This document shows positions 1 to 51,454 of a stretch of DNA of 64,000 nt, piece by piece (the stretch's first letter is position 1; every line of letters starts with the position of its first letter). The stretch spans positions 22,555 to 86,554 of the forward strand of contig CANFST010000004.1 of assembly GCA_947449695.1 (NCBI GenBank), written 5' to 3'. This DNA is from Chitinophagales bacterium. GTDB lineage: Bacteria > Bacteroidota > Bacteroidia > Chitinophagales > CAIODY01. The position numbers and the translations under genes were made by a program. The notes beneath the pieces were generated by a model. That model made no database searches and was not told the origin of the DNA. It worked only from the letters and a program-made list of their open reading frames with translations.

Positions 1-1163
1 ACTGGTTTTTTCTTGATGGCACCCACTGCTAAAATTGCCACTTGTGGTTGATTGATAATTGGTGTTCCCATCAAACTTCCGAAGCTGCCCACATTGGTTA
101 AAGTGAATGTGCCGCCTTGAGTTTCATCAGGTTTCAAACCATTGTTTCTGCCAGCATTTGCCAAGCGATTTACCTCCTTGGTTAAGCCAATTAAATTGCG
201 TTGGTCAGCATTTTTAATCACAGGTACAATCAAATTGCCGCTTGGTGTAGCTGTTGCCATACCAACATTAATATCTTTTTTCAAAATGATATTTGTACCG
301 TCAACACTGGCATTTACAAAAGGAAATTCTTTCAATGCTTTTGCAACTGCTTCAACAAATATTGGTGTGAAAGTGATTTTTTCGCCTTCACGTTTTTCAA
401 AATTCTTTTTCACTTTATCTCGCCATTTCACCAAGTTGGTAACATCGGCTTCGGCAAAAGAAGTTACATGTGGCGAAGTAGCTTTGCTGCGAACCATGTG
501 GTCGGCAATCAACTTACGCATTCTGTCCATTTCAATTATTTCAACATTGCCCGAAACTGGCTGTGAGCTTTGAGTTGTGGGCTGTGAGCTAACTATTACA
601 GGTGCTGATGCGACAACAGGCGAACTTGCTTGTATAGGTGCAGAAGCAGCTACAGGAGCTGAACTACGAGTTTTTACATAATTTAAAATATCACTTTTTG
701 TAACTCTACCTTCCTGGCCTGTGCCTGGCAAAGTTTCCAATTCGCTCATACTGATACCTTCCTGACGAGCAATATTTAGAACCAATGGCGAATAAAATCT
801 ATCACCTGAAACTTTAGCCGCAGGTGTTGCTGATGCAGGTGGAACAAATGGAACCGCAGCTGGTGTTGCAGCCACAGGAGCAGCTTGTTGAGTTGCTACA
901 GGCGCTGAAGCTCCTGCAGATGCAGCATCTTCAATCACAGCAATCACTTTACCAACTGGCACCACAGCATTTTCTTTAAATAAAATTTCAACCAATTTGC
1001 CAGCAGCTGTGCTCGGCACTTCGCTATCTACTTTATCTGTTGCAATTTCCAAAACCATTTCATCCATAGCCACCATATCACCCACATTCTTGCGCCACTT
1101 CAAAATGGTAGCTTCCATAATACTTTCGCCCATTTTGGGCATCACTAATTCAAATCGAGCCAT
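1..1163 (-). CDS. 2-oxo acid dehydrogenase E2 component (dihydrolipoyllysine-residue acyltransferase); 3' end cut by window edge
   Basis: Not in the ORF track because no stop lies in the window. The reverse-strand translation from ATG (cat at 1161-1163) reads MARFELVMPKMGESIMEATILKWRKNVGDMVAMDEMVLEIATDKVDSEVPS (lipoyl domain with the DK lipoyl-lysine context). It continues through Ala/Pro-rich linkers and an E3-binding-like segment (SPLVLNIARQEGISMSELETLPGTGQEGRVTKSDI), then a catalytic-domain start. The plus-strand ORFs 142-573, 201-566 and 997-1197 are its shadows. Confidence 0.85.
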   Translation of the reverse strand, partial: MARFELVMPKMGESIMEATILKWRKNVGDMVAMDEMVLEIATDKVDSEVPSTAAGKLVEILFKENAVVPVGKVIAVIEDAASAGASAPVATQQAAPVAATPAAVPFVPPASATPAAKVSGDRFYSPLVLNIARQEGISMSELETLPGTGQEGRVTKSDILNYVKTRSSAPVAASAPIQASSPVVASAPVIVSSQPTTQSSQPVSGNVEIIEMDRMRKLIADHMVRSKATSPHVTSFAEADVTNLVKWRDKVKKNFEKREGEKITFTPIFVEAVAKALKEFPFVNASVDGTNIILKKDINVGMATATPSGNLIVPVIKNADQRNLIGLTKEVNRLANAGRNNGLKPDETQGGTFTLTNVGSFGSLMGTPIINQPQVAILAVGAIKKKP

Positions 1164-29417: not shown

Positions 29418-30656
29418 TTACTCTTTCACAAACTTAGCTGTATGCACAAAACCTTTTTCATCCGTAGCTTTTATAAAATAGATGCCGCTTGATAAATCAC
29501 TCACCTCTATTTGTATTGCATTTTCTAATCTACTCATCTTCAAATCTTCTAATTTTCTGCCTACCACATCATATACTTCTATTGTTTTTACTAATGACTG
29601 CTGATTGACTATTGTTAAATTGGTATTTGCTGGATTCGGATATACTTCCAACTGCCTATTGTTATTGGTTAATTGGTTGATGCCCACATTACTGACAATT
29701 ACTGTTACTGTGTCATAATAAGTAGTATTACAAATAGTGGATTGCAAAACATAAGTAGTGGTTTGCTGAGGTTGCACCCATATACCGCCTGTGTTTTGCT
29801 TAATAAGGCTACTGCCCACATACCAGTTATTTTGCACACCCGGCACTTGTTCTATACCTAAATACACACTATCACCTTTGGCTATGGTGGTATCCTTACC
29901 GGCGTAGGCACCGGCTTCAATGACAAATACATCGTCTATTAAATAACCACTGCCATATCCAGGATAACTTTGATTTATCAATATTGTATCTGTTAAAGAA
30001 TCTGAATGAAAATTACTAATAATAGCATATTTTTCGCTGCCATGAGCTTGATAAATACCAGCTATAGGTGTCCAGTTCATTGTATCTGTTATTACAGGAT
30101 TACCTTGCTTCATGATGTGTGATGGCAACTGAACTAAATCATGAAAATATTGTGTCCCACCATACGGACCAGCAGGTAAAGCTGTATCGCTTATGCTTAT
30201 GGCTATGTTATTACATGCAGTGTAATCAGAAAATAAATTAACATAAAAATAAACAATATAACAATTATTTGCTTTTAAAGTATCAGCAAAAGGTACTTGA
30301 ATATAATCTCTATAGTCAGCTCCTTTATTAAAATCATTAAACCACATACCAACCATTTTTTTTCCTGTTCTTGGGCATTGATAAGCTAAACCCGAAAAAA
30401 GCGGAGCTAAACATGATGAAGTTGAAGGAGCATCGGTATGAAAAATTTCTGCAAAGTTTGTAACTGGTGAATTCCAAGGTTTCGCCAAATGCATTCTCCC
30501 CCCCCAACATAATTCATTAAATGGGCTAGGAAAAGAATCAACAAGCTCAAAACTATAATTAGGAATAAGATTGGTTTGCGCTTTGCAGTTGACAGAATAA
30601 AATAAAAAAGCCAACAGCAACAGCTGCTGGCTTTTTTTAATAAAATTATTTATCAT
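29418..30656 (-). CDS. secreted protein with T9SS type A C-terminal sorting domain
   Basis: Signal peptide present. The C-terminal LEVYPNPANTNLTIV...SGIYFIKATDEKGFVHTAKFVKE is a T9SS CTD pattern. Confidence 0.7.
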   Translation of the reverse strand: MINNFIKKSQQLLLLAFLFYSVNCKAQTNLIPNYSFELVDSFPSPFNELCWGGRMHLAKPWNSPVTNFAEIFHTDAPSTSSCLAPLFSGLAYQCPRTGKKMVGMWFNDFNKGADYRDYIQVPFADTLKANNCYIVYFYVNLFSDYTACNNIAISISDTALPAGPYGGTQYFHDLVQLPSHIMKQGNPVITDTMNWTPIAGIYQAHGSEKYAIISNFHSDSLTDTILINQSYPGYGSGYLIDDVFVIEAGAYAGKDTTIAKGDSVYLGIEQVPGVQNNWYVGSSLIKQNTGGIWVQPQQTTTYVLQSTICNTTYYDTVTVIVSNVGINQLTNNNRQLEVYPNPANTNLTIVNQQSLVKTIEVYDVVGRKLEDLKMSRLENAIQIEVSDLSSGIYFIKATDEKGFVHTAKFVKE

Positions 30657-30814: not shown

Positions 30815-30824
30815 GGCTGAACTT

Positions 30825-30987
30825 GTTTCCGTCAAGAAACATTTTGTTTCCACATGGAAACAACTTTTTTCCACATGGAAAACTTTCTTTTCCGCATGGA
30901 AAGATTTCTTTTCCGGATGGAAAAGTTTTATTTCCACCCGGAAACTTTTTGTTTCCGAACGCTAACAAGTTGTTTCCGAACGGAAAA
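30825..30987. repeat. tandem array of 8 units with an exact 21-nt period, each a TTTCC-N(4-6)-GGAAA dyad
   Basis: Unit starts are 30825, 30846, 30867, 30888, 30909, 30930, 30951 and 30972. In order the units read GTTTCCGTCAAGAAAC, GTTTCCACATGGAAAC, TTTTCCACATGGAAAA, TTTTCCGCATGGAAAG, TTTTCCGGATGGAAAA, ATTTCCACCCGGAAAC, GTTTCCGAACGCTAAC and GTTTCCGAACGGAAAA. Confidence 0.9.
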
Positions 30988-31252: not shown

Positions 31253-32620
31253 TCAAAACAACAATTGATAAACCTGTTCCAATTTTGAACAAGTGATTAC
31301 TTCAATATTATATCTCGAGGTGTCTAATCCTTTTTTATTGTAAGATGAAATTACAATTTTTTCGAAGCCTAACTTATCAGCTTCGGCAATGCGTTGGTCT
31401 ATTTTATTTACAGCCCGTATTTCACCACTCAAGCCAACTTCGCCCACAAAACAAATGTTGGCAGCCAATGGTTTGTCTTCGTAACTACTTAATAATGCGC
31501 TACAAATTGCTAAATCTAAAGCTGGGTCATCAATCTTTAATCCGCCAGCTAGATTCACAAAAACATCTTTTGTTCCGAATGTAAATCCACCACGTTTTTC
31601 TAAAACAGCCAACAACATATTTAATCTTCGCAAATCAAAACCTGTTGCTGTGCGCTGCGGTGTGCTGAAATGCGTTTGCGTAACCAATGCTTGTGTTTCA
31701 ATCAACATTGGTCGTAGGCCTTCCATTGTTGCAGCGATTGCAATTCCACTCAATTGCTCTTCACGTTGTGTAATTAAAATTTCGCTTGGGTTATTTACCT
31801 GTCGCAAACCATTGGGTTGCATTTCATAAATGCCCAATTCACTGGTTGAACCAAATCTGTTTTTTAAAGTTCGTAAAATTCGGTAAGTATAATGTTGGTC
31901 GCCTTCAAACTGCAAAACCGTATCTACCATGTGTTCCAACACTTTTGGCCCAGCAATGCTACCATCTTTTGTAATATGCCCAATCAAAAAAACAGGCACA
32001 TTGGTTTCCTTTGCATAACGCTGCCATTCGCCTGTACACTCCCTAATTTGCGACACACTGCCCGGCGTTGATTCAATCAAATTGCTGTGCAAAGTTTGAA
32101 TAGAATCAATAATAATTACATCAGGCTGAATTTGTTCAAGTGCTTTAAATATATGCTGGGTGCAAGTTTCGGTGAGCAAATACATTTCTTGTTGCGATGA
32201 AATTCTATCAGCTCTCATTTTTATTTGCTGCTCACTTTCTTCACCGCTGATGTACAAAACCTTCTTGGGATGCAGTTGCAGAGCCAATTGCAAAAACAAA
32301 GTTGATTTGCCAATGCCCGGTTCGCCAGCCACTAAAACCAATGAACCTGGCACAATTCCACCGCCCAACACTCTGTTTAATTCAGCGTCGGGCGTAATTA
32401 ATTTGAATTCTAAACTCGGCACAATTTCATTCAAAGCCACAGGTTTGGCTATGGTGGCTGATTTCCGAACATCACTTTTCCATTCGTAAGGTTTTTGTTC
32501 TTTCGAAATTAATTCTTCCACAATCGTATTCCACTCACCACACGATGTGCAGCGCCCAACCCATTTAGAATAATTTGTGCCACAACTCTGGCAGCTATAA
32601 ACTGTTTTTGTTTTACTCAT
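31253..32620 (-). CDS. radA: DNA repair protein RadA/Sms
   Basis: N-terminal zinc finger CQSCGTNYSKWVGRCTSCGEW, Walker A GEPGIGKST, the KNRFG motif, and a Lon-like C-terminal domain. Confidence 0.92.
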   Translation of the reverse strand: MSKTKTVYSCQSCGTNYSKWVGRCTSCGEWNTIVEELISKEQKPYEWKSDVRKSATIAKPVALNEIVPSLEFKLITPDAELNRVLGGGIVPGSLVLVAGEPGIGKSTLFLQLALQLHPKKVLYISGEESEQQIKMRADRISSQQEMYLLTETCTQHIFKALEQIQPDVIIIDSIQTLHSNLIESTPGSVSQIRECTGEWQRYAKETNVPVFLIGHITKDGSIAGPKVLEHMVDTVLQFEGDQHYTYRILRTLKNRFGSTSELGIYEMQPNGLRQVNNPSEILITQREEQLSGIAIAATMEGLRPMLIETQALVTQTHFSTPQRTATGFDLRRLNMLLAVLEKRGGFTFGTKDVFVNLAGGLKIDDPALDLAICSALLSSYEDKPLAANICFVGEVGLSGEIRAVNKIDQRIAEADKLGFEKIVISSYNKKGLDTSRYNIEVITCSKLEQVYQLLF

Positions 32621-39468: not shown

Positions 39469-39954
39469 ATGACGATAAACGATTACAATTTTTGTGTTAC
39501 CGCTTATGCCGACCATCTGTTTCGATTCATTTTTAAACATACCCAGCATGAAGAAAATGCAAGAGATGTGGTTCAAAATGCTTTTGAAATTTTATGGAAA
39601 AAACGTGATGAGATAGAAATGGAAAAAGCGAAATCGTTTTTGTTTAGTGTGGCTTATAAAAATAAAATTGACCAGTTTAGAAAGCAAAGCAAGGTGAATT
39701 TGGTAGATGAATTTTCGGCACAAACAAAAATTATCAACGAACACAAACCAGGATTGAAAGAAGTTTTGGAAAAGGCTTTGAACACTTTGCCTGAAATTCA
39801 AAAATCTTGTGTGTTGTTGAGAGATTATGAGGGATATGATTACAAAGAAATAGGTGAAATTTTGAATTTAAATGAATCGCAGGTGAAGGTGTATATTTTC
39901 AGAGCAAGGCAAAGTTTGAAAAATTATTTAGTGAGCATCGAAACAGTTTTATAA
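39469..39954 (+). CDS. ECF-type RNA polymerase sigma-70 factor
   Basis: Region 2 (ARDVVQNAFEILWKKRD) and a region 4 HTH (LRDYEGYDYKEIGEILNLNESQVKVYIFRARQSL). Confidence 0.85.
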   Translation: MTINDYNFCVTAYADHLFRFIFKHTQHEENARDVVQNAFEILWKKRDEIEMEKAKSFLFSVAYKNKIDQFRKQSKVNLVDEFSAQTKIINEHKPGLKEVLEKALNTLPEIQKSCVLLRDYEGYDYKEIGEILNLNESQVKVYIFRARQSLKNYLVSIETVL

Positions 39955-39955
39955 C

Positions 39956-40798
39956 ATGAACATCAACAGAAGCAATTACGAAGAATATGTTATCAGCTAC
40001 ATTGAAAATGTGTTGAGCGATGCTGAACGCCTTGCTGTAGAAAGTTTTGTAAACGAAAATATAGATTTGAAAAATGAATTAAGATTATTTCAGCAAACAA
40101 AATTAGTAGTCGATGAAAAAATAATTTTTGCTAATAAGGAAAGGTTGTTACATAAACATCCAACAAAAATTATTGCTGGGCAATGGAGTTTAAACACTTG
40201 GGCAGTTGCCGCCATGCTGCTTTTGGCAGTAGGTTTGGGTTGGTGGATGTTTAGTGGAAAGTTGAAAGTTGAAAGCGAAAAACTAGAAGCAAAAAAAGAG
40301 TCCCCAGTTGTCAGTCATCAGTTGTCAGTTCAAGAAAACAAAAATGATGGCTGTTTTCGAAAATCAGTTTCAGTGAAAAAAAATGTAGCGCAAAAAGTAT
40401 TCGCCTCCGTAAAAAAAGAAATGCCTAAAACTATTGACACTACTGATTTACCGAATTCACGGAGAAACAGAAAATTATGGAATGAAACACATGAAATAGC
40501 TGTTGTACAAGAAATTAAACCTGAAGAAATTGTTGTTCAATCACAAAAAAAAGCGGAGCAAATGGACACGATAAAATCAATTGTACAAAATTCAATTTCA
40601 ATTCATTCAACTAAAAAACAAGAGGAAAAAATAATCGTTCAAATTCCTTTTAAAACTAACAAAAATGAAAGACAGATTTTAAAAATGTTGGCTTGGGCAA
40701 GTGGTAAAGTTTTGGGCAAAAAAACCAACAATGGCAATTTTGATGTCAGCATTGGTTTTGCTGAAATTAGCCACAAACAAGCATTACAAGATAATTAA
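39956..40798 (+). CDS. putative single-pass anti-sigma factor
   Basis: It starts 2 nt after the sigma gene. It has an N-terminal anti-sigma-like helix region and one TM helix (WAVAAMLLLAVGLGWWMF). Confidence 0.5.
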   Translation: MNINRSNYEEYVISYIENVLSDAERLAVESFVNENIDLKNELRLFQQTKLVVDEKIIFANKERLLHKHPTKIIAGQWSLNTWAVAAMLLLAVGLGWWMFSGKLKVESEKLEAKKESPVVSHQLSVQENKNDGCFRKSVSVKKNVAQKVFASVKKEMPKTIDTTDLPNSRRNRKLWNETHEIAVVQEIKPEEIVVQSQKKAEQMDTIKSIVQNSISIHSTKKQEEKIIVQIPFKTNKNERQILKMLAWASGKVLGKKTNNGNFDVSIGFAEISHKQALQDN

Positions 40799-45692: not shown

Positions 45693-47090
45693 TTGTTCAT
45701 CAAAATTTGTGTGTTGAGAAAATTAGTTGTCAAAATATCTTTATTAATTGTCGTTATTTTTTGCACCACAAAAAATATTTCTAAGGCTCAATCATTTACA
45801 TCGCCTAAGGAACTTACTCGGATTTTATTTTTGCTAGATGCATCCCAAAGCATGGGAAATAGCTGGGATAGAGGAAGCCGAATGGAAGAAGCAAAAAGAG
45901 TTCTAGCAACATTGGCTGATAGTTTAAGTAAACTAAATAATGTTGAAATTGGTTTAAGGGTTTATGGTCATCAATCAGACCAATCGATGAACAACTGCCA
46001 CGACACAAAGTTAGAAGTGGCTTTTGGAAAAAACAATTTCAGATTTATTCGCAAGAAATTGGAAAGCATTCATCCTCAAGGCATTACACCAATTGCATTA
46101 TCTCTTCAAAAATGTGCAGTTGATTTTCCGAAATCCACGGTTAGTAAAAACGTGGTGGTTATCATTACCGATGGTATTGAATCATGCGGTGGCGACCCAT
46201 GCGCTATTGCAAAAGATTTGCAAGCCAAAGGCATCATTTTAAAACCATTTATTATCGGATTGGGAATGGATGAAAAAATGGATAATAGTTTAGATTGCAT
46301 TGGCAAATACGACAATGTGCCCGATGGTAAAGCATTTGAAGCCGCTTTGCACAAAACGGTTTACACCATTCTTACAAGAACAACCGCCGAAATTGATTTG
46401 TTGGATGCCGACAAAAAGCCAGTTGAAACGGCTGTGAATATGACTTTTTATGATGCTCAAACAATGAATTTAAAATACGATTTGTATCATACTTTAAATG
46501 TGAGAGGCAACCCCGATACTTTGATTTTAGACCCGATTGTGAAATATAATTTAGATGTGCATACCATTCCGCCAATTGAGTTAAATAACTTGATTTTGAA
46601 AACCGATTCACACAATGTTTTTAAATTAGATTCGCCCCAAGGTTGGCTCAGGATAGGCTCTTCGAACAAAACCAATGTAAAATGTTTGATACGAAAAGCA
46701 GGCACACAAAACACATTGCACGTTCAAAATTTAAACACTATCGAAAAATATTTGTGTGGAAAATTCGATTTAGAAATTTTAACGTTGCCCCGAATAAAAA
46801 TGAATAATGTGGAAGTGTCGCAAACCAAAACTACCAACATTCAAATTGCGCCACCAGGTAATTTAAACTTAGATAAAAATGGTGAAATTTATGGCGGCAT
46901 TTTTTATTTAACCGAAAATAGCTGGGTAAAACTATACGAGTTAAAAACGAATCTTTACATAGAGAATTTAAAACTTCAACCTGGCAATTATCGCATCATT
47001 TATCGGAATAAAGCGAACAAGCGTATGAAGCAAACGGTTAATAAAGACATTGTAATCAAGAGCAACCAAACGTTGAATGTTACACTATAG
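45693..47090 (+). CDS. von Willebrand factor A domain-containing secreted protein
   Basis: MIDAS motif LLDASQSMG, followed by TDGIESCGGDP. The start codon is uncertain: TTG 45693, GTG 45711 or TTG 45714. Confidence 0.7.
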   Translation: MFIKICVLRKLVVKISLLIVVIFCTTKNISKAQSFTSPKELTRILFLLDASQSMGNSWDRGSRMEEAKRVLATLADSLSKLNNVEIGLRVYGHQSDQSMNNCHDTKLEVAFGKNNFRFIRKKLESIHPQGITPIALSLQKCAVDFPKSTVSKNVVVIITDGIESCGGDPCAIAKDLQAKGIILKPFIIGLGMDEKMDNSLDCIGKYDNVPDGKAFEAALHKTVYTILTRTTAEIDLLDADKKPVETAVNMTFYDAQTMNLKYDLYHTLNVRGNPDTLILDPIVKYNLDVHTIPPIELNNLILKTDSHNVFKLDSPQGWLRIGSSNKTNVKCLIRKAGTQNTLHVQNLNTIEKYLCGKFDLEILTLPRIKMNNVEVSQTKTTNIQIAPPGNLNLDKNGEIYGGIFYLTENSWVKLYELKTNLYIENLKLQPGNYRIIYRNKANKRMKQTVNKDIVIKSNQTLNVTL

Positions 47091-47161
47091 GTTACATTGA
47101 TTTTTATCATCTTTTTCCGCATTTCAAATCTTATCTTCGCCGTTCAATTTTTCACTACATC

Positions 47162-48415
47162 ATGCATTTTGAAAATTCATTGTCATTTGCTCAGCAACTT
47201 GATTCACAAGATTCATTAAAACATTTTCGTGACCGATTTTTTATACCGAAAGTGAATGGTAAAGATTCCATTTATCTCTGCGGAAATTCTTTAGGCTTGC
47301 AACCCAAATCGGCAATGGAACATATTGATGTTGAATTGGATGATTGGGCGAAACTTGGTGTAGAAGGGCATGTTCACGGAAAAAATCCTTGGTTGTATTA
47401 TCATCATTTCACACAAGATGCATTGGCAAAATTAGTTGGCGCTAATAAAAATGAAGTAGTGGCAATGGGTTCATTGACTAACAATCTTCATTTGTTGATG
47501 GTATCCTTTTATCGTCCGACAAAAGAGCGATATAAAATCCTGATTGAAAATCGTCCTTTCCCAAGTGACCAATACGCTGTTACTTCTCAGGCAAAATTTC
47601 ATGGTTTTGATGAGAGTGCAATTATTGAAATGCAGCCTCGTGAAGGGGAATACGCTTTGCGTACTGAAGATATTTTAGCAAAAATTGAAGAACACAAAAA
47701 TGAATTAGCATTGGTGATTTTGGGCGGTGTTCATTTCTATACTGGGCAATTGTTCGACATGAAAGCCATTACTAAAGCGGCTCACAACGCTGGTGCAAAT
47801 TGTGGTTTTGATTTAGCGCATGCAATGGGAAATATACCGATGCAATTGCACGACTGGAATGTTGATTTCGCTTGTTGGTGTAGTTACAAATATTTGAATA
47901 GCGGTCCGGGTGGTGTAGCTGGAATTTTTGTGCATGAAAAACATCACAAAAATGATTCGCTACCAAGATTCAATGGTTGGTGGGGACACAATGAAAAAGA
48001 CCGTTTTAAAATGGAAGCAACTTATGAAAGTATGTATACTGCTGAATCATGGCAAATGAGTAATGCGCCTGTGTTTGCAATGGCAATTCATAAAGCCTCT
48101 TTAGAAATTATCGACGAAGCTGGCATTTACAACATGCGTAAAAAAAGTTTGCAGCTTACAGCTTTCTTAGAATATTTATTGATTGAAAAAAGAAAAGAGA
48201 AAAATTTACAGTTCGATATTTTGACACCTTCAAATGAAAATGAACGAGGTTGCCAAATCAGTTTGTCATTTAAAGAAAATGGAAAACAGATTTTTGATAA
48301 ACTCACCAAAGCTGGTGTGATAGCTGATTGGAGAGAGCCAGGTGTAATTCGTGTTGCACCAGTGCCGTTGTATAATTCGTTTGAGGATGTGTTCAATTTC
48401 GTAAATCAGTTTTAG
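47162..48415 (+). CDS. kynU: kynureninase
   Basis: Full-length KynU pattern: YLCGNSLGLQPK, FDLAHAMGN and WCSYKYLNSGPGG (PLP lysine). Confidence 0.9.
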   Translation: MHFENSLSFAQQLDSQDSLKHFRDRFFIPKVNGKDSIYLCGNSLGLQPKSAMEHIDVELDDWAKLGVEGHVHGKNPWLYYHHFTQDALAKLVGANKNEVVAMGSLTNNLHLLMVSFYRPTKERYKILIENRPFPSDQYAVTSQAKFHGFDESAIIEMQPREGEYALRTEDILAKIEEHKNELALVILGGVHFYTGQLFDMKAITKAAHNAGANCGFDLAHAMGNIPMQLHDWNVDFACWCSYKYLNSGPGGVAGIFVHEKHHKNDSLPRFNGWWGHNEKDRFKMEATYESMYTAESWQMSNAPVFAMAIHKASLEIIDEAGIYNMRKKSLQLTAFLEYLLIEKRKEKNLQFDILTPSNENERGCQISLSFKENGKQIFDKLTKAGVIADWREPGVIRVAPVPLYNSFEDVFNFVNQF

Positions 48416-48444
48416 TCGTAAGTCAATAGTCATAAGTCGTAAGC
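48414..48444. repeat. left arm of a 31-nt imperfect inverted repeat bracketing the four-helix-bundle gene
   Basis: AGTCGTAAGTCAATAGTCATAAGTCGTAAGC. The reverse complement of 48824-48854 is AGTCGTAAGTCGTGAGTTGTTAGTCGTAAGC. Identity is 25/31, with perfect 11-nt and 10-nt ends. Confidence 0.85.
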
Positions 48445-48810
48445 ATGCAAATTCAGAAGTTTGAAGATATTATTGCTTGGCAAAAAGCACAGAATTTTTC
48501 TGTTGCCATTTATCATGCTTTTGAAAAAACTAAGGACTATGCTTTCAAAGACCAAATTTGCAGGGCATCTGTTTCTATTTCAAACAACATCGCTGAAGGC
48601 TTTGATAGAAGCAGTGATGCCGACTTTGCAAGATTTCTTTACATGGCTTTAGGTTCTTCAAGCGAAGCAAAATCAATGTTATATTTAGCAGTTCAACTAA
48701 ATTATATTTCAGAAGAAACAAAGAATGAATTGATTGAACAATCAAATGAAATTTCAAAAATCATAAGAGGATTCATAAAAGTCCTTTCACAAAAAAATAA
48801 AAAAGTATGA
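48445..48810 (+). CDS. four-helix-bundle protein (23S rRNA intervening-sequence protein family)
   Basis: 121 aa. FEDIIAWQKAQNFSVAIY...SISNNIAEGFDRSSDADFARFLYMALGSSSEAKSMLYLA is the typical family signature. Confidence 0.8.
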   Translation: MQIQKFEDIIAWQKAQNFSVAIYHAFEKTKDYAFKDQICRASVSISNNIAEGFDRSSDADFARFLYMALGSSSEAKSMLYLAVQLNYISEETKNELIEQSNEISKIIRGFIKVLSQKNKKV

Positions 48811-50195
48811 CTAACAACTCTTCGCTTACGACTAACAACTCACGACTTACGACTTCTAAAAATATTTCCATCGTAGGTTCAGGTTTAGTAGGCAGTTTGC
48901 TATCTGTTTATTTAGCTAAACGTGGTCACCATGTTACTATGTTCGAACGCCGACCAGATATGCGTTCTACAAAAATATCAGCAGGAAGAAGTATTAATTT
49001 GGCGTTGAGTGATAGAGGCTTACGTGGCTTGAAAGCAGCTGGTATTGCTGATGACATCATGAAAATTGCTATCCCGATGTATGGACGTCAGATTCATCAT
49101 CAGGATGGAACGCAAACTTTTCAACCATATGGAAAAGAAAATCAGGCGATTTATTCTGTGAGTAGAAGCGGCATCAATATGGCTTTGATGAGCTTGGCTG
49201 AAAAATTTGAAAATGTAAACATCAAATTTGAGCATAAATGCACTGATATTAATTTACGACAATCAACTGCAAAATTTGTTGATGAAAAAACAGGTAATCC
49301 AGTTGTATCGAACGCTGATATTTTATTGGGAACAGATGGTGCTTTTTCCCCTGTTCGTTTGGCTATGCAAACATCTACGGATATGTTTAACTATTCACAA
49401 ACATATTTAGAACATGCTTACAAGGAATTGTTGATTCCAGCAAATGAAGACGGTAGTTTCAGAATGGAGAAAAATGCTTTACATATTTGGCCAAGAAAAA
49501 GTTTTATGATGATTGCTTTGCCAAATATTGATGGCAGCTTCACTTGCACATTGTTTTTACAATTGAAAGGAGAGGAATCATTTGAGACGTTGAAAGATGA
49601 AACTTCAATGATGAATTTCATGCAAAAATATTTTGCTGATGTAATTGCATTAATGCCAACATTAAAACAAGATTTTTTCGCCAATCCAACTTCAACTTTG
49701 GTAACAGTTCGTTGCTTTCCTTGGAGCTTTGAAGACAAAGCTTGTTTGGTAGGTGATGCTGCACATGCTATTGTGCCATTCTTTGGGCAAGGTATGAATT
49801 GTGGTTTTGAAGATTGTGTGGTGTTTGATGAAATGATGGAAAAACATGGCGACAATTGGAAAGCACTGTTTGAAGAATATCAAACACTTCGCAAACCGAA
49901 TGGCGATGCGGTGGCGCAGTTGGCTTTGGATAATTTCATTGAGATGAGAGACAAAACTGCTGACCCGAAATTTTTGTTACGTAAAAAAATTGAAGCCCGG
50001 ATTGCAACTGAGCATCCTAACTTTTTAAGCATGTATGCACAAGTAACATTCAGTCCGCAAATAAGCTACCATACTGCATATAATGAAGGTCAGAGACATG
50101 GCGTTCATTTAGATAAATTAGCCAACATTGAAAATGTATTCGACAAATGGAATACTCCTGAGGTGCAAGATGTGGTGAAGGAATTGGTGGGGTAA
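48807..50195 (+). CDS. kmo: kynurenine 3-monooxygenase (FAD-dependent)
   Basis: FAD fingerprint IVGSGLVGSLLSVYLAKRGHHVTMFERR, then GDAAHAIVPFFGQGMNCGFED. The ATG overlaps the upstream stop (ATGA). The N-terminal MTNNSSLTTNNSRLTTSK is encoded by the repeat element. Confidence 0.88.
   Translation: MTNNSSLTTNNSRLTTSKNISIVGSGLVGSLLSVYLAKRGHHVTMFERRPDMRSTKISAGRSINLALSDRGLRGLKAAGIADDIMKIAIPMYGRQIHHQDGTQTFQPYGKENQAIYSVSRSGINMALMSLAEKFENVNIKFEHKCTDINLRQSTAKFVDEKTGNPVVSNADILLGTDGAFSPVRLAMQTSTDMFNYSQTYLEHAYKELLIPANEDGSFRMEKNALHIWPRKSFMMIALPNIDGSFTCTLFLQLKGEESFETLKDETSMMNFMQKYFADVIALMPTLKQDFFANPTSTLVTVRCFPWSFEDKACLVGDAAHAIVPFFGQGMNCGFEDCVVFDEMMEKHGDNWKALFEEYQTLRKPNGDAVAQLALDNFIEMRDKTADPKFLLRKKIEARIATEHPNFLSMYAQVTFSPQISYHTAYNEGQRHGVHLDKLANIENVFDKWNTPEVQDVVKELVG
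48824..48854. repeat. right arm of the inverted repeat, lying inside the first 16 codons of kmo
   Basis: GCTTACGACTAACAACTCACGACTTACGACT. A local direct repeat GACTAACAACTC is also present at 48809-48820 and 48830-48841. Confidence 0.85.
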
Positions 50196-50200
50196 AAGCT

Positions 50201-51265
50201 ATGGAAAAGAATTTTCACAGAAATATAATTTTTACTAAAGCTCATTTAAAAACGAATTTTAGGTTTAAAGATGTTTTTCAAATTTATCCTTGTGATTTTG
50301 CCGATGCTCCAAAATCTGAGTATGCGTTGGATAATCCTGTTGTTATTGAATATTTTACCGATTCAACAAAAAATCCAGAAGTATATTCTTGGATTAAGCA
50401 AAAGAACTTGATTTCTGGATTGGCAAATCAAACAAGCCAATTAAATAAGATTACAAGGTTATTGTCAGCAATCACTAAACACCGTTTTTTTAGCTACTCG
50501 ACTTCTGACTCAAAATGGGGAATTATACCAAAAGAAAATAATGATGAATCAGAATTTAATGCAAGTAAAATTTTCTTTCCATTTTTTTATTATCCTAATT
50601 CAAAAAATGACTTAAGAGGTAATGAATTTGCCGCTCAAAGACATTTAAATTCAAATTTTATATCGCATCAAAATTATTATTTACAAGGTTCAATTGATAA
50701 TTTGGTTGATGACAATACACAGGAGATTTCATTTTCAGATTTAACAGAAAAAATTTTAGAAAACTATTTTAATCTTGACGAAGAATCTCAAAAAATAGTC
50801 GATGCAGTGGCTCATTTAATCTGCAATGGGATTGACATTAAACAATCAATGAAAAGTTTATCGTTTATCTCATTCGTTTCAAGCATTGAAACTTTGGCGA
50901 ACTATTATTTTAGGAATCATAAAGTAGAACTTCATTGCGAATCATGTAAAACCATTAAGGAATCTAGCTTTACTTGTAATGAATGTGGAAGACCGATTTG
51001 GGGCGTAACAGCAAAGTTTAAAACTTTTTTAAGCACTTATATTTCAAATGAGGAATCAACGAAATCCAAGTACAATAAGATTTATAATATGCGTAGCAGA
51101 ATTGTTCATAATGGAACTCTTTTGCTTGGCGACGAACAATTAAATTGGAAAGAATCAAAAAAAGAGGATAGTGAGTGGAGAATACATTTTGAGACAATGC
51201 AGATGGCACGAGCCGCCTTGGCTAATTGGTTGATATGGGGACCTGATTTAAAACCAAGGGATTAA
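50201..51265 (+). CDS. hypothetical protein with a C-terminal HEPN-like Rx4H motif and an inserted CxxC...CxxC zinc ribbon
   Basis: 354 aa. The motifs are HCESCKTIKESSFTCNECGRPIWG followed by KIYNMRSRIVHNGTLLL, where RSRIVH fits R-x4-H and the -HNG context resembles RNxIAHG-type HEPN families. The N-terminal ~220 aa are unrecognised. Confidence 0.45.
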   Translation: MEKNFHRNIIFTKAHLKTNFRFKDVFQIYPCDFADAPKSEYALDNPVVIEYFTDSTKNPEVYSWIKQKNLISGLANQTSQLNKITRLLSAITKHRFFSYSTSDSKWGIIPKENNDESEFNASKIFFPFFYYPNSKNDLRGNEFAAQRHLNSNFISHQNYYLQGSIDNLVDDNTQEISFSDLTEKILENYFNLDEESQKIVDAVAHLICNGIDIKQSMKSLSFISFVSSIETLANYYFRNHKVELHCESCKTIKESSFTCNECGRPIWGVTAKFKTFLSTYISNEESTKSKYNKIYNMRSRIVHNGTLLLGDEQLNWKESKKEDSEWRIHFETMQMARAALANWLIWGPDLKPRD

Positions 51266-51313
51266 ATTTATTTTACAGTTCCTCAACTATAATTTTTTAA
51301 CCGAATATTCTCC

Positions 51314-51376
51314 TTGAAACAAAAAATCCATTATCACTTTCTTCAAATAGCAAATGACAAAGTTTAATTGCTACAA
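51314..51376 (+). repeat. 63-nt relic copy of the 5' end of the gene at 52195 (direct repeat of 52201-52263, 57/63 identical)
   Basis: Position-by-position alignment shows 6 mismatches. The relic translates as LKQKIHYHFLQIANDKV* versus LKQKIHSHFLQLATDKVQ in the intact gene. Confidence 0.85.
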
Positions 51377-51454
51377 TCTTGATTAGTAAGAATAAAGTTT
51401 AATCCTTTACCTCTCTAAATCTTCATAGCTTTGAAAAACTTTATTGAATAGCAA

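What the first reader, a model, noticed from the sequence alone, without database searches (positions are those of the whole stretch)
48414..48854. Four-helix-bundle (23S-IVS-type) gene bracketed by 31-nt inverted repeats, inserted between kynU and kmo and donating the kmo N-terminus
The 121-aa four-helix-bundle ORF (48445-48810) is flanked by AGTCGTAAGTCAATAGTCATAAGTCGTAAGC (48414-48444) and its imperfect reverse complement (48824-48854). Identity is 25/31, with perfect 11-nt and 10-nt ends. The left arm begins inside the kynU stop codon. The right arm lies inside kmo codons 6-16, so the odd N-terminus MTNNSSLTTNNSRLTTSK of KMO is repeat-encoded, and the kmo ATG overlaps the cassette stop (ATGA). 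This family was first seen inside 23S rRNA intervening sequences, where flanking repeats form an RNase III-processed stem. Here the same architecture would form a ~30-bp stem enclosing 379 nt inside a metabolic operon mRNA. It therefore looks like a discrete, possibly mobile or processing-competent cassette rather than an ordinary gene. DGR Avd proteins share this fold, but no reverse transcriptase is in the window.
Basis: partly seen in the sequence, partly recalled or inferred. Interest (0 to 1): 0.58.

Follow-up and report, generated by a model that had tools for sequence, protein, structure and literature searches.

The report
Four-helix-bundle gene cassette in heptamer hairpin
A small conserved gene of unknown function sits between two tryptophan-breakdown genes, wrapped in mirror-image arrays of 7-base repeats; its relatives in many bacteria, and apparently the version inside ribosomal-RNA intervening sequences, have the same wrapping, and close relatives carry a different small gene at the same spot, so it is a discrete, swappable cassette.

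Summary
ORF 48445-48810 is a PF05635/TIGR02436 four-helix-bundle (FHB) gene. It is bracketed by 31-nt arms that are 25/31 complementary. The kynU stop overlaps the left arm, and the kmo ATG overlaps the FHB stop (ATGA).

- Period 7 is the best tandem period in 63/82 upstream and 63/82 downstream flanks of Bacteroidota homologues.
- Arm polarity is fixed.
- 66/81 arm pairs are complementary beyond shuffled controls.
- 69/81 fold with a long-range closing stem.
- Xanthomonadales homologues sit between accB and accC inside inverted GGGAATC arrays.
- The Coxiella 23S intervening sequence (IVS) has heptamers before its ORF.

Relatives with 88-98% identical KMO carry divergent GxxExxY genes at the same junction. 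These have their own inverted arms and a normal kmo start (MKKNISIVG or MQKNISIVG). So the cassette is discrete and replaceable, and the KMO leader is repeat-encoded.

The FHB gene is under purifying selection. The window has no reverse transcriptase, transposase or integrase.

RNase III-type processing is inferred, not shown; a G·U wobble test gave no support. This is a new variant of the IVS-type element.

The parts
47162..48415 (+). kynU (kynureninase), the upstream host gene. The last two bases of its TAG stop are the first two bases of the 5' arm.
   Evidence: TIGR01814 at 2.4e-141; PF22580 KYNU_C matched to residue 416 of 417. Sequence.
48414..48444 (+). 5' arm: about 4.3 degenerate heptamers (AGTCGTA AGTCAAT AGTCATA AGTCGTA AGC). 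It is G>C ('R-type') and abuts the FHB ATG with no spacer.
   Evidence: TRF period 7; inverted repeat I1; motif enrichment. The same R-type array lies upstream of 54/58 homologues that have a TRF-detected array.
48445..48810 (+). Four-helix-bundle protein gene, 121 aa (PF05635 23S_rRNA_IVP / TIGR02436). This is the cargo of the cassette.
   Evidence: Pfam 9.1e-34 and TIGR02436 1.8e-32. PDB 2GSC at 8e-11 and 2RLD at 5e-9. 26 synonymous against 5 non-synonymous codon differences to L081.
48807..48860 (+). New kmo start (ATG overlapping the FHB TGA) plus an 18-codon leader MTNNSSLTTNNSRLTTSK read through the 3' heptamer array. The ancestral start (MKK/MQK-NISIVG) is gone.
   Evidence: This frame is the only one of three left open across the region. 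It stays open in the diverged alleles L081 and P0122.
48824..48854 (+). 3' arm: C>G ('Y-type') heptamers (GCT TACGACT AACAACT CACGACT TACGACT), the imperfect reverse complement of the 5' arm. The array extends back to about 48809 with a 21-nt super-period.
   Evidence: I1, I2, D2; 48809-48854 period 21; 48825-48855 period 7. A Y-type array lies downstream of 51/58 homologues.
48861..50195 (+). Core of kmo (kynurenine 3-monooxygenase), the downstream host gene. It is colinear with relatives from codon 19 (NISIVGSG...).
   Evidence: PF01494 at 2.7e-21. 97-98% identity to P0121/P0366, which JGI names kynurenine 3-monooxygenase for related clusters.

Best explanation
This is an IVS-type cassette living in an operon instead of in a 23S rRNA gene. 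A promoterless four-helix-bundle (FHB) gene sits in the loop of a long-range hairpin. The two strands of the hairpin are inverted arrays of degenerate heptamers.

Shown:
- The cassette fills the whole kynU-kmo spacer.
- It is co-oriented with both neighbours.
- It shows no Bacteroidetes-type -7 promoter motif (TAnnTTTG) of its own.
- It encodes a protein under purifying selection.
- It belongs to a family-wide architecture found in Bacteroidota and Xanthomonadales; the Coxiella 23S IVS appears to share it.
- Relatives carry other small inverted-repeat-flanked genes (GxxExxY) at the same junction.
- Its arrival removed the original kmo start codon. kmo now begins at an ATG overlapping the FHB stop and reads through the 3' array.

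Inferred:
- The cassette is transcribed as part of a kynU-FHB-kmo message.
- In that message the arms pair into a stem of about 24-31 bp.
- By analogy with the RNase III-cut stems of S23p-bearing IVSs, this stem is a processing or insulating element. It would separate or stabilise the FHB segment and let such cassettes be tolerated inside essential transcription units.
- kmo translation is coupled to FHB translation by termination-reinitiation at ATGA.

The biochemical role of the FHB protein remains unknown. The most economical guess is a nucleic-acid-binding factor that acts on heptamer-array hairpins.
For: Anatomy.

Family-wide architecture in 80 Bacteroidota loci:
- Period 7 is the best tandem period in 63/82 upstream and 63/82 downstream flanks, against 154/1251 control windows.
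- Period-7 arrays occur at 53 per 100 kb, against 12.6 per 100 kb in unrelated KMO loci.
- Polarity is R-type upstream in 54/58 and Y-type downstream in 51/58.
- Arms are complementary above the shuffled 95th percentile in 66/81.
- The MFE fold pairs the two flanks by at least 10 bp in 69/81. The median is 29 bp and the window gives 24 bp; control ORFs have a median of 4.5 bp.

Operon embedding:
- The upstream neighbour is co-oriented in 70/75 cases, the downstream neighbour in 70/77, and both in 63/74. Background adjacent ORF pairs are co-oriented in 216/282.
- Median gaps to neighbours are 66 and 64 nt.
- No TAnnTTTG motif lies in 46900-48900.

Arms change in concert: in orthologous rfb loci with 81-94% identical flanking proteins, the units differ but both arms of a locus mostly share the change. 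Examples are AGTAGTA/TACTTAC, AGTCGTA/TACGACT and GAGTCGT/ACGACTC; L045 is a partial exception.

Other phyla:
- Xanthomonas and Pseudoxanthomonas have accB-FHB-accC, with GGGAATC-type heptamers 5' and CCCCATT-type heptamers 3'.
- The Coxiella IVS has GACAGAT heptamers before the S23p ATG, a 28-bp terminal stem and RNase III cleavage shown in vitro (PMC4990558).

Cassette replacement and ancestral kmo start.

Purifying selection: 26 synonymous against 5 non-synonymous differences.

No RT, transposase or integrase in the window.
Against: - There are no RNA data for this or any non-rRNA FHB cassette.
- Among non-Watson-Crick positions in aligned arms, G·U-compatible pairs on the sense strand (78) are fewer than A·C pairs (116), p = 0.008. 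The expected signature of selection on a sense-RNA helix is therefore absent. This may reflect A-richness selected upstream of start codons, so the test is inconclusive rather than contrary.
- The window stem has a 10 x 10 internal region with only 4 pairs, flanked by helices of 11 and 10 bp. That is weaker than typical RNase III substrates.
- In Coxiella, S23p is reported as probably not translated. There the arrangement may serve the RNA rather than the protein.
- Complementarity could instead be maintained at the DNA level.
Confidence: 0.55

Rival explanations
1. A DNA-level mobile element. The inverted heptamer arrays are terminal inverted repeats. Cassettes (FHB, GxxExxY) move or are swapped by recombination at the arms, or by a homing-like process. 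Gene-less R-loop-Y heptamer hairpins are MITE-like derivatives. RNA pairing is a by-product.
For: - The cargo turns over at one junction. Besides the FHB gene there are three GxxExxY variants only 63-68% identical to each other, while flanking kynU and kmo are 88-94% identical.
- Both 90%-identity KMO clusters contain both allele types.
- FHB alleles are 96% identical where KMO is 87% identical.
- Gene-less heptamer hairpins are frequent in the same loci. Rehm et al. report 70 inverted GGGAATC pairs in X. campestris (PMC4692102).
- Other arrays in a locus share the FHB arm unit within one mismatch in 46% of cases, against 8.7% for arms from other loci.
- There is no G·U excess.
- GxxExxY has a PD-(D/E)XK nuclease fold by Pfam assignment.
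Against: - No empty site, no target-site duplication and no recombinase were found in the window.
- Arm units vary between loci, which argues against a sequence-specific transposase.
- The rfb-locus cassette has been inherited vertically across genus-level divergence. The accB-accC cassette is conserved across Xanthomonas and Pseudoxanthomonas. Movement is therefore rare at best.
- A 121-aa helical bundle has no known catalytic motif.
Confidence: 0.25
2. A protein-binding array. The FHB pentamer, or a host single-strand-binding factor, binds the heptamer units as RNA or DNA. The arms would be an autoregulatory operator, and the gene-less hairpins would be further targets. Complementarity is secondary. 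This rival is compatible with the best explanation.
For: - There is a strict 7-nt periodicity with degenerate units.
- Units are genome-specific.
- The 5' array abuts or overlaps the FHB start codon, in the window and in Xanthomonas, where a GTG start lies inside the array.
- A family member, Avd, works as a partner of a nucleic-acid enzyme in DGRs (PMC10053308 in the hit list; the role itself is from established knowledge).
- FHB genes recur next to nucleases in cas loci (PMC3936711).
Against: - No binding data exist.
- Covariation between FHB sequence and unit was not tested, because it is confounded by host phylogeny.
- GxxExxY cassettes have inverted arms that are not heptameric. Inverted arms therefore do not depend on FHB.
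Confidence: 0.2
3. Nothing special: an ordinary small gene in an operon. Its short spacers happen to hold slippage-generated heptamer microsatellites, and the 25/31 complementarity is a by-product of both spacers using the genome's commonest unit.
For: - Heptamer simple repeats are reported as over-represented in bacterial genomes (cited in PMC4692102).
- Arms from different loci also align fairly well (null median 11, 95th percentile 22), because many share AGTCGTA-like units.
- Other heptamer runs in the window lie inside ORFs at 560-590 and 40253-40330.
Against: - Chance does not explain the fixed polarity (R upstream 54/58, Y downstream 51/58).
- It does not explain the concentration of arrays at FHB genes: 124 of 186 arrays of at least 21 nt.
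- It does not explain the concerted change of both arms in orthologous loci.
- It does not explain recurrence in Xanthomonadales or in the Coxiella IVS.
- It does not explain the clean replacement of the whole unit by another inverted-repeat-flanked gene in relatives.
Confidence: 0.05
4. An Avd-type accessory gene of a diversity-generating retroelement.
For: It shares the fold family PF05635.
Against: - No reverse transcriptase was found among the window ORFs of 277 aa or more.
- No template/variable repeat pair was seen.
- The neighbours are kynU and kmo, and the same architecture recurs in rfb and acc operons.
Confidence: 0.02

Closest known systems
23S rRNA intervening sequences carrying an S23p/PF05635 ORF (Leptospira, Coxiella, Xanthomonas-type; Ralph & McClelland 1993; Warrier et al. 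2016, PMC4990558)
   Same: - The ORF belongs to the same family.
- The ORF is enclosed by terminal inverted repeats that form a stem of about 28-31 bp.
- Tandem heptamers lie directly upstream of the ORF start and vary in copy number.
- The element is embedded in, and transcribed with, a host transcription unit.
- The element has no recombinase of its own.
   Different: - The host site is an intercistronic spacer of a protein-coding operon (kynU-kmo), not helix 25 or 45 of 23S rRNA.
- The 3' arm is translated as part of the downstream gene.
- The ORF is clearly under purifying selection here, whereas the Coxiella ORF is reported as decaying and probably untranslated.
- RNase III cleavage has not been demonstrated here.
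Heptamer simple-sequence repeats: GGGAATC of Xanthomonas (Rehm et al. 2015, PMC4692102), TAACTGA of Beggiatoaceae, Cyanobacteria and some Bacteroidetes (MacGregor 2015, PMC4679880), and cyanobacterial STRR (recalled from memory)
   Same: - They are tandem degenerate 7-nt units in intergenic spacers close to start codons.
- They often occur as convergent (inverted) pairs.
- Copy number varies between strains.
- In Xanthomonas they are the very repeats that flank the FHB gene between accB and accC.
   Different: Term searches of those two papers found no mention of four-helix-bundle, S23 or intervening-sequence genes. The papers discuss G-quadruplexes or translational regulation. Here the arrays form the two arms of a gene-bearing hairpin.
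GxxExxY / PDDEXK_3 small genes (TIGR04256, PF13366)
   Same: - They occupy the identical kynU-kmo junction in close relatives.
- They are of similar size (131-133 aa).
- They are also bracketed by imperfect inverted arms partly built from short tandem repeats.
   Different: - The fold is unrelated (PD-(D/E)XK nuclease-like).
- The arms are not heptameric.
- The kmo start codon is left intact.
DGR accessory protein Avd
   Same: Same Pfam family and four-helix-bundle pentamer fold (PDB relatives).
   Different: There is no reverse transcriptase and no template or variable repeats. The context is a housekeeping operon.
MITEs, free-standing homing-endonuclease genes and integron cassettes
   Same: - It is a small discrete unit with inverted ends.
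- It is inserted between conserved co-oriented genes.
- The occupant differs between close strains.
- Gene-less derivatives exist.
- Expression is promoterless and depends on host transcription.
   Different: - There is no transposase or integrase, no target-site duplication and no attC/attI.
- The ends are variable tandem heptamers rather than a conserved recognition sequence.
- FHB has no nuclease motif.

Membership tests
PF05635 / TIGR02436 four-helix-bundle protein (23S_rRNA_IVP, 'S23p') | Whole-protein HMM score above the curated cut-off | tested here: met
   PF05635 scores 116.3 bits against a cut-off of 33.8. TIGR02436 scores 111.8 bits against a cut-off of 24.
PF05635 / TIGR02436 four-helix-bundle protein | Sequence similarity to members with solved pentameric four-helix-bundle structures | tested here: met
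   2GSC (XCC0516) at 7.9e-11 and 2RLD at 4.6e-9. The conserved motif SISNNIAEG aligns to SIPSNIAEG. No structure prediction was run.
23S rRNA intervening sequence (IVS) element | Located inside a 23S rRNA gene (helix 25 or 45) | tested here: not met
   It lies between kynU and kmo. Rfam finds no match in 47000-50300.
23S rRNA intervening sequence (IVS) element | Terminal inverted repeats that enclose the element in a long stem | tested here: met
   31-nt arms, 25/31 complementary. They are paired in both MFE and centroid folds, z = -4.1.
23S rRNA intervening sequence (IVS) element | Carries an S23p-family ORF in the loop | tested here: met
23S rRNA intervening sequence (IVS) element | Excised from the precursor by RNase III | not testable with these tools
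   Needs RNA end mapping. The indirect G·U test gave no support.
Diversity-generating retroelement (Avd component) | Adjacent reverse transcriptase and a template/variable repeat pair | tested here: not met
   Pfam scans of the window ORFs of 277 aa or more show housekeeping or T9SS proteins only. No such repeat pair appeared.
Insertion sequence / MITE | Terminal inverted repeats plus target-site duplication, with a transposase in cis or trans | tested here: inconclusive
   Inverted ends are present. No direct duplication is visible at the borders (TAG|TCGTAAG ... CGACT|TCTAAA), but no empty site is available to define them. No transposase is in the window.
Integron gene cassette | A single attC at the 3' end, and an array next to intI/attI | tested here: not met
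   The arms lie on both sides of the ORF. No integrase is present, and the neighbours are housekeeping genes.
Bacterial heptamer simple-sequence repeats (LSSR/STRR type) | Tandem head-to-tail 7-nt units, at least 3 copies, degenerate | tested here: met
   TRF period 7, with 4.3 and 4.4 copies. The same holds in homologous loci.

The most novel reading that the evidence does not exclude
PF05635 four-helix-bundle genes and heptamer-array hairpins are two halves of one self-perpetuating element family spread across bacterial phyla.
- The FHB-bearing hairpin would be the autonomous form.
- The gene-less R-loop-Y heptamer hairpins would be its non-autonomous derivatives. These include the roughly 70 inverted GGGAATC pairs of Xanthomonas.
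- The classical S23p-bearing 23S rRNA IVS would be the special case of insertion into rDNA.
- The FHB protein would be the trans-acting factor that recognises, maintains or regenerates arrays of its own unit.

This would explain the genome-specific units and the concerted change of both arms.
Probability: 0.2. Interest if true: 0.85.

Novelty: new variant of a known kind. Interest (0 to 1): 0.62.

Why it matters
Two old puzzles become one testable question.

First, the origin and purpose of ORF-bearing intervening sequences in 23S rRNA have been open since 1993. This locus and about 85 related ones show that the same gene-in-a-hairpin unit lives mostly in ordinary operons such as kynU-kmo, rfb and accB-accC. 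rDNA would then be just one target among many.

Second, the over-representation of heptamer repeats in bacterial genomes has lacked an explanation. Examples are Xanthomonas GGGAATC and the cyanobacterial, Beggiatoa and Bacteroidetes heptamers. Here the arrays are the paired arms around a specific gene family, and gene-less hairpins nearby share the same unit.

Practical consequences:
- Gene callers will mis-start neighbouring genes. The KMO here has an 18-residue repeat-encoded leader, and XCC0516 starts inside an array.
- The cassettes mark strain-variable spots inside otherwise conserved operons.
- Xanthomonas accB-XCC0516-accC offers a genetically tractable model, with a crystal structure already available.

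Tried and rejected
1. G·U against A·C mismatch asymmetry, as a signature of selection on a sense-RNA helix. The result was 78 against 116. It gives no support and is possibly confounded by A-richness before start codons.
2. The idea that the 5' arm closes all reading frames and the 3' arm is open in all. The 5' half holds: 42/55 arrays close all three frames, and 51/81 against 79/328 controls do so in the 45 nt upstream of the start. The 3' half is false: only 10/50 arrays are open in all frames. In the window only the kmo frame is open, and the window's own 5' arm closes two of three frames.
3. Metagenome scan with KMO to find empty kynU-kmo junctions. The best hit was 60% identical, so it was useless for the junction and served only as a background set.
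4. Search for further cargo families among small ORFs with long-range flank pairing. Apart from GxxExxY (L039, L084), the hits were ordinary genes lying between neighbouring arrays.
5. Rfam, PADLOC and sigma-70 promoter / intrinsic terminator scans found nothing informative.
6. Eight of the ten allowed full-text literature searches. None found a paper linking PF05635 genes to flanking heptamer arrays, apart from the incidental Coxiella description. Ralph & McClelland 1993 is not held.
7. DGR/Avd reading: rejected, no RT.
8. Second four-helix-bundle gene in the window: none by tblastn.
9. DNA for the P0122 allele (FHB allele in the 87%-identical KMO clade) was unavailable. Nucleotide-level dating of the cassette against its flanks across clades was therefore not possible.

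Full report
**1. The observation**

- The kynU ORF (47162-48415) ends with TAG at 48413-48415.
- The 31-nt left arm AGTCGTAAGTCAATAGTCATAAGTCGTAAGC occupies 48414-48444.
- A 121-codon ORF runs from ATG 48445 to TGA 48808-48810.
- The next ORF starts at ATG 48807, so the two overlap as ATGA.
- The right arm GCTTACGACTAACAACTCACGACTTACGACT occupies 48824-48854, which is codons 6-16 of that ORF.

The repeat finder returns exactly this pair: 31 nt, 81% complementary, 379 nt apart. The 9-mer AGTCGTAAG occurs four times in the 64-kb window, all in the arms, against 0.05 expected. Folding 48400-48870 as RNA pairs the arms in both the MFE and the centroid structures, with z = -4.1 against shuffles.

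The family assignments hold.
- The enclosed ORF is a clear PF05635 / TIGR02436 four-helix-bundle (FHB) protein. It has solved relatives 2GSC and 2RLD.
- The upstream gene is kynureninase, TIGR01814 at 2e-141.
- The downstream gene is an FAD monooxygenase whose close homologues are labelled kynurenine 3-monooxygenase.

**2.

Tandem Repeats Finder reports period 7 for both arms, with 4.3 and 4.4 copies.
- The left arm reads AGTCGTA AGTCAAT AGTCATA AGTCGTA AGC.
- The right arm region reads AACAACT CTTCGCT TACGACT AACAACT CACGACT TACGACT.

The inverted repeat is therefore a pair of inverted arrays of one degenerate 7-nt unit.

**3. This is a family-wide architecture**

A scan of one genome per species returned 80 loci with FHB homologues. 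All but one, a contig binned as Azovibrio, carry Bacteroidota-type names, and identity to the query is 59-76%. Printing 70 nt either side of the 82 genes shows heptamer arrays in nearly all. The upstream array is, for example, (AGTCGTA)n, (AGTAGTA)n, (AGGCGTA)n or (CAGTGGA)n, and the downstream array is its reverse complement.

The numbers:
- Period 7 is the best tandem period in 63/82 upstream and 63/82 downstream flanks, against 154/1251 control windows from the same loci.
- Period-7 arrays occur at 53 per 100 kb in these loci. In 80 unrelated KMO loci the figure is 12.6 per 100 kb, and most of those are two-copy chance matches.
- 124 of the 186 arrays of at least 21 nt lie next to an FHB gene.
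- Polarity is fixed. The upstream array is G>C in 54/58 cases and the downstream array is C>G in 51/58.
- The two flanks are complementary above the 95th percentile of shuffled controls in 66/81 loci.
- The MFE fold of gene plus 80-nt flanks pairs the two flanks by at least 10 bp in 69/81. The median is 29 bp and the window gives 24 bp. Other ORFs of 90-200 aa have a median of 4.5 bp.

The cassettes sit in tight spacers, with median gaps of 66 and 64 nt. Both neighbours are co-oriented in 63/74 cases. Background adjacent ORF pairs are co-oriented in 216/282, so about 59% would be expected for both neighbours.

**4. The architecture crosses phyla**

I rebuilt most of the XCC0516 sequence from the PDB alignment and searched with it. 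The Xanthomonas and Pseudoxanthomonas homologues all lie between accB (biotin carboxyl carrier) and accC (biotin carboxylase).
- Upstream, directly after the accB stop, is GGGAATC GGGAGTG GAGAATG GGGAATC.
- Downstream, ending at the accC ATG, is TCCCACT CCCCATT CTCGACT CCCTATT CCC.

These are the GGGAATC repeats studied by Rehm et al., who report 70 convergent pairs in X. campestris. Term searches of that paper found no mention of four-helix, S23, intervening sequence, XCC0516 or accB/accC (PMC4692102).

For Coxiella, Warrier et al. describe a 28-bp terminal stem, RNase III cleavage in vitro, and two to four tandem GACAGAT heptamers immediately upstream of the S23p ATG. The 5' cut lies at the start of the first repeat (PMC4990558). 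The classical S23p-bearing IVS therefore looks like one instance of the same unit.

**5. It is a discrete, replaceable cassette, and the KMO leader is repeat-encoded**

The window's own FHB and KMO proteins are on record as P0379 and P0378, on an NCBI contig of 97,080 nt.

Relatives with 97-98% identical KMO (P0121, P0366; loci L084, L085, L174-L178) carry a different gene between kynU and kmo. It is 133 aa and belongs to PF13366 / TIGR04256 (GxxExxY). The three-way alignment shows that homology to the window stops right after the kynU TAG. It resumes at AAAAATATTTCC, which is kmo codon 3.

The GxxExxY gene has its own imperfect inverted arms.
- In L084 the upstream arm is GAACGCAGATGGCGCAGATTTT, and the reverse complement of the downstream arm is GAACGCTGATTACGCTGATTTT.
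- In L180 the arm is ATAGAACGCAGATTgTTATGATT, with its complement downstream.
- A GxxExxY gene in the unrelated locus L039 also has inverted arms.

More distant members of the lineage (KMO 88-91% identical; L179-L181) also hold GxxExxY genes at this junction. Those proteins are only 63-68% identical to each other, while kynU and kmo are 88-94% identical.

FHB alleles occur in the window, in P0370 and P0373, in L081-L083, and in P0122/P0380. Both 90%-identity KMO clusters contain both allele types. The FHB proteins are 96% identical where the KMOs are 87% identical. No empty junction was found.

KMOs next to GxxExxY start MQKNISIVGSG or MKKNISIVGSG, as do 70%-identical KMOs elsewhere. In the window the corresponding codons read ...ACT TCT AAA AAT ATT TCC. 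No in-frame ATG, GTG or TTG lies between 48807 and the GxGxxG motif. The 18-codon leader is therefore the translated 3' array.
- Its frame is the only one of three left open.
- It stays open in the diverged alleles L081 (MTNNSSLSTNDLRLTTAK) and P0122 (MTTNSSLTTNDLRLTTTK).
- Among 70 other loci, no downstream ORF starts within 5 nt of the FHB stop. This capture of the neighbour's start is specific to this locus.

**6. The gene is functional and mostly inherited vertically**

Between the window and L081, the FHB gene shows 26 synonymous and 5 non-synonymous codon differences. The last 600 nt of kynU show 37 and 7.

Nine loci from Flavipsychrobacter and Chitinophagaceae MAGs have the FHB cassette immediately upstream of the same rfbA-like gene (an ORF starting MKGIxLAGG); eight of them also share the upstream gene.
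- RfbA is 79-99% identical across the nine, the upstream gene is 81-99% identical across the eight, and FHB is 52-98% identical, with a congruent pattern.
- The arm unit differs between these orthologous loci: AGTAGTA/TACTTAC, AGTCGTA/TACGACT and GAGTCGT/ACGACTC.
- In most of them both arms of a locus share the change; in L045 they match only partly.

This concerted change argues that complementarity is maintained. It does not say whether that happens at the RNA or the DNA level.

**7. Stand-alone hairpins and genome-specific units**

The same loci contain R-array/loop/Y-array hairpins without any gene. Examples are L016 1820-1937, L037 2578-2639, L041 1701-1758, L042 687-860, L048 2142-2311, L061 4049-4136 and L078 151-317.

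Other heptamer arrays in a locus match the FHB arm unit within one mismatch in 46% of cases. For arms from other loci the figure is 8.7%.

An R-loop-Y hairpin is its own reverse complement. Its polarity therefore says nothing about the direction of transcription.

**8. Mechanism**

Shown:
- The cassette fills the spacer and is co-oriented with its neighbours.
- It has no TAnnTTTG -7 motif in 46900-48900. Sigma-70-type promoter-like hits over 46900-51400 are no more frequent than in shuffles, and no terminator-like site lies at the junction.
- It can fold into a long-range stem.
- Its stop overlaps the new kmo start.

Inferred:
- kynU, FHB and kmo are co-transcribed.
- The arm stem acts as an RNase III-type processing or insulating element, as in S23p-bearing IVSs.
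- kmo translation is coupled by reinitiation at ATGA.

The one indirect test I could run for an RNA-level constraint was negative. Sense-strand G·U-compatible mismatches number 78, against 116 A·C mismatches. DNA-level maintenance, whether by a mobile element with tandem-repeat termini or by gene conversion between arms, therefore remains a serious rival. So does a protein-binding role for the heptamers.

The window holds no reverse transcriptase, transposase or integrase among the ORFs of 277 aa or more that were scanned. Rfam and PADLOC give nothing.

**9. Comparison with the known, and novelty**

- It is a member of PF05635 / TIGR02436.
- It works like an ORF-bearing 23S IVS, but it fails that family's defining location, so it is not an IVS in the strict sense.
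- It is not a DGR component, an IS, a MITE or an integron cassette by their defining features.

Eight full-text searches found no paper that connects FHB genes with flanking inverted heptamer arrays, or that places such cassettes in operons. They returned only the incidental Coxiella observation and two heptamer-repeat papers that do not mention the gene. The library lacks most subscription journals, so prior description cannot be excluded.

I rate it a new variant of a known kind.

**10. Verdict**

- Observation: confirmed.
- Interpretation: partly supported. The discrete cassette, the repeat-encoded KMO leader and the IVS-like architecture are supported. Processing and mobility remain inferred.
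- Interest: 0.62. The single locus is modest. Its value is that it exposes a cross-phylum gene-in-heptamer-hairpin architecture, which ties the IVS problem to the heptamer-repeat problem and can be tested in Xanthomonas.

Noticed in passing
window 560-590 (minus-strand ORF 3-1163): A 4.4-copy heptamer array (GCTGTGA on the + strand) lies inside a 2-oxoacid dehydrogenase E2 acyltransferase-like gene. It encodes the linker segment SSQPTTQSSQPVS between the peripheral-subunit-binding region and the catalytic domain. So heptamer arrays in this genome also occur inside coding sequence.
   Followed up: partly
window 40253-40275 and 40305-40330 (ORF 39956-40798, downstream of an ECF-type sigma factor gene at 39469-39954): Two heptamer runs of the same polarity (AGTTGAA x3.3 and CAGTTGT x3.7) lie 29 nt apart. 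Both are translated within a 280-aa ORF that has no Pfam match and is probably an anti-sigma factor by position. The unit resembles the FHB arm unit (AGT[CT][GA]T). No FHB gene is nearby.
   Followed up: partly
window 50201-51265: A 354-aa ORF directly after kmo has no Pfam, NCBIfam or PADLOC match. In relatives with 97-98% identical KMO this position holds hicA-hicB plus a Z1/ResIII protein (L174). In others it holds unrelated 324-aa and 148-aa ORFs (L179). There is therefore a second strain-variable spot on the other side of kmo.
   Followed up: partly
window 30824-30957: A tandem array with a 21-nt unit, 5.8 copies (GAAACATTTTTTTTCCACATG; also scored as 42-nt and 63-nt periods). The units contain the short palindrome TGGAAA...TTTCCA. 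It lies between ORFs 29418-30656 (-) and 31253-32620 (-, RadA-like). Its function is unknown.
   Followed up: no
L168 1925-2381, L170 1925-2372, L173 1985-2445 (Xanthomonas, Pseudoxanthomonas): The crystallised protein XCC0516 belongs to a gene wedged between accB and accC and flanked by inverted GGGAATC arrays. Its probable GTG start lies inside the 5' array, which fits residue numbering in 2GSC. In L168 the annotated ORF reads through the 3' array past the accC ATG.
   Followed up: yes
L181 1329-1866: The GxxExxY cassette of this relative has a complex 3' flank. It holds a direct copy of part of its own 5' arm (CACACGGATTTTTTATGATTAAAAAG), followed about 60 nt later by an inverted copy (CTCTGTGCTATC). 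This looks like the scar of a nested or repeated insertion.
   Followed up: no
P0365 (KMO allele, 471 aa): One KMO allele is annotated with the N-terminal extension MSSCLCGIITNHNNQRHQRSININ before MKKNISIVG. This looks like read-through of a GxxExxY-type 3' arm (AATCAGCGT repeats). It may be an annotation artefact, or a second case of arm sequence captured into kmo.
   Followed up: no
L063 (three FHB genes within 6.4 kb); L026/L030 (two on one contig): Some genomes carry clusters of FHB cassettes. All three in L063 use the same unit (TAGTTGT/AACAACT), and one lies on the opposite strand.
   Followed up: partly
one search hit table: Many FHB homologues are recorded only on very short contigs (0.5-3 kb). 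This would be expected if the flanking heptamer arrays break short-read assemblies, although the collection's median contig is also short.
   Followed up: no
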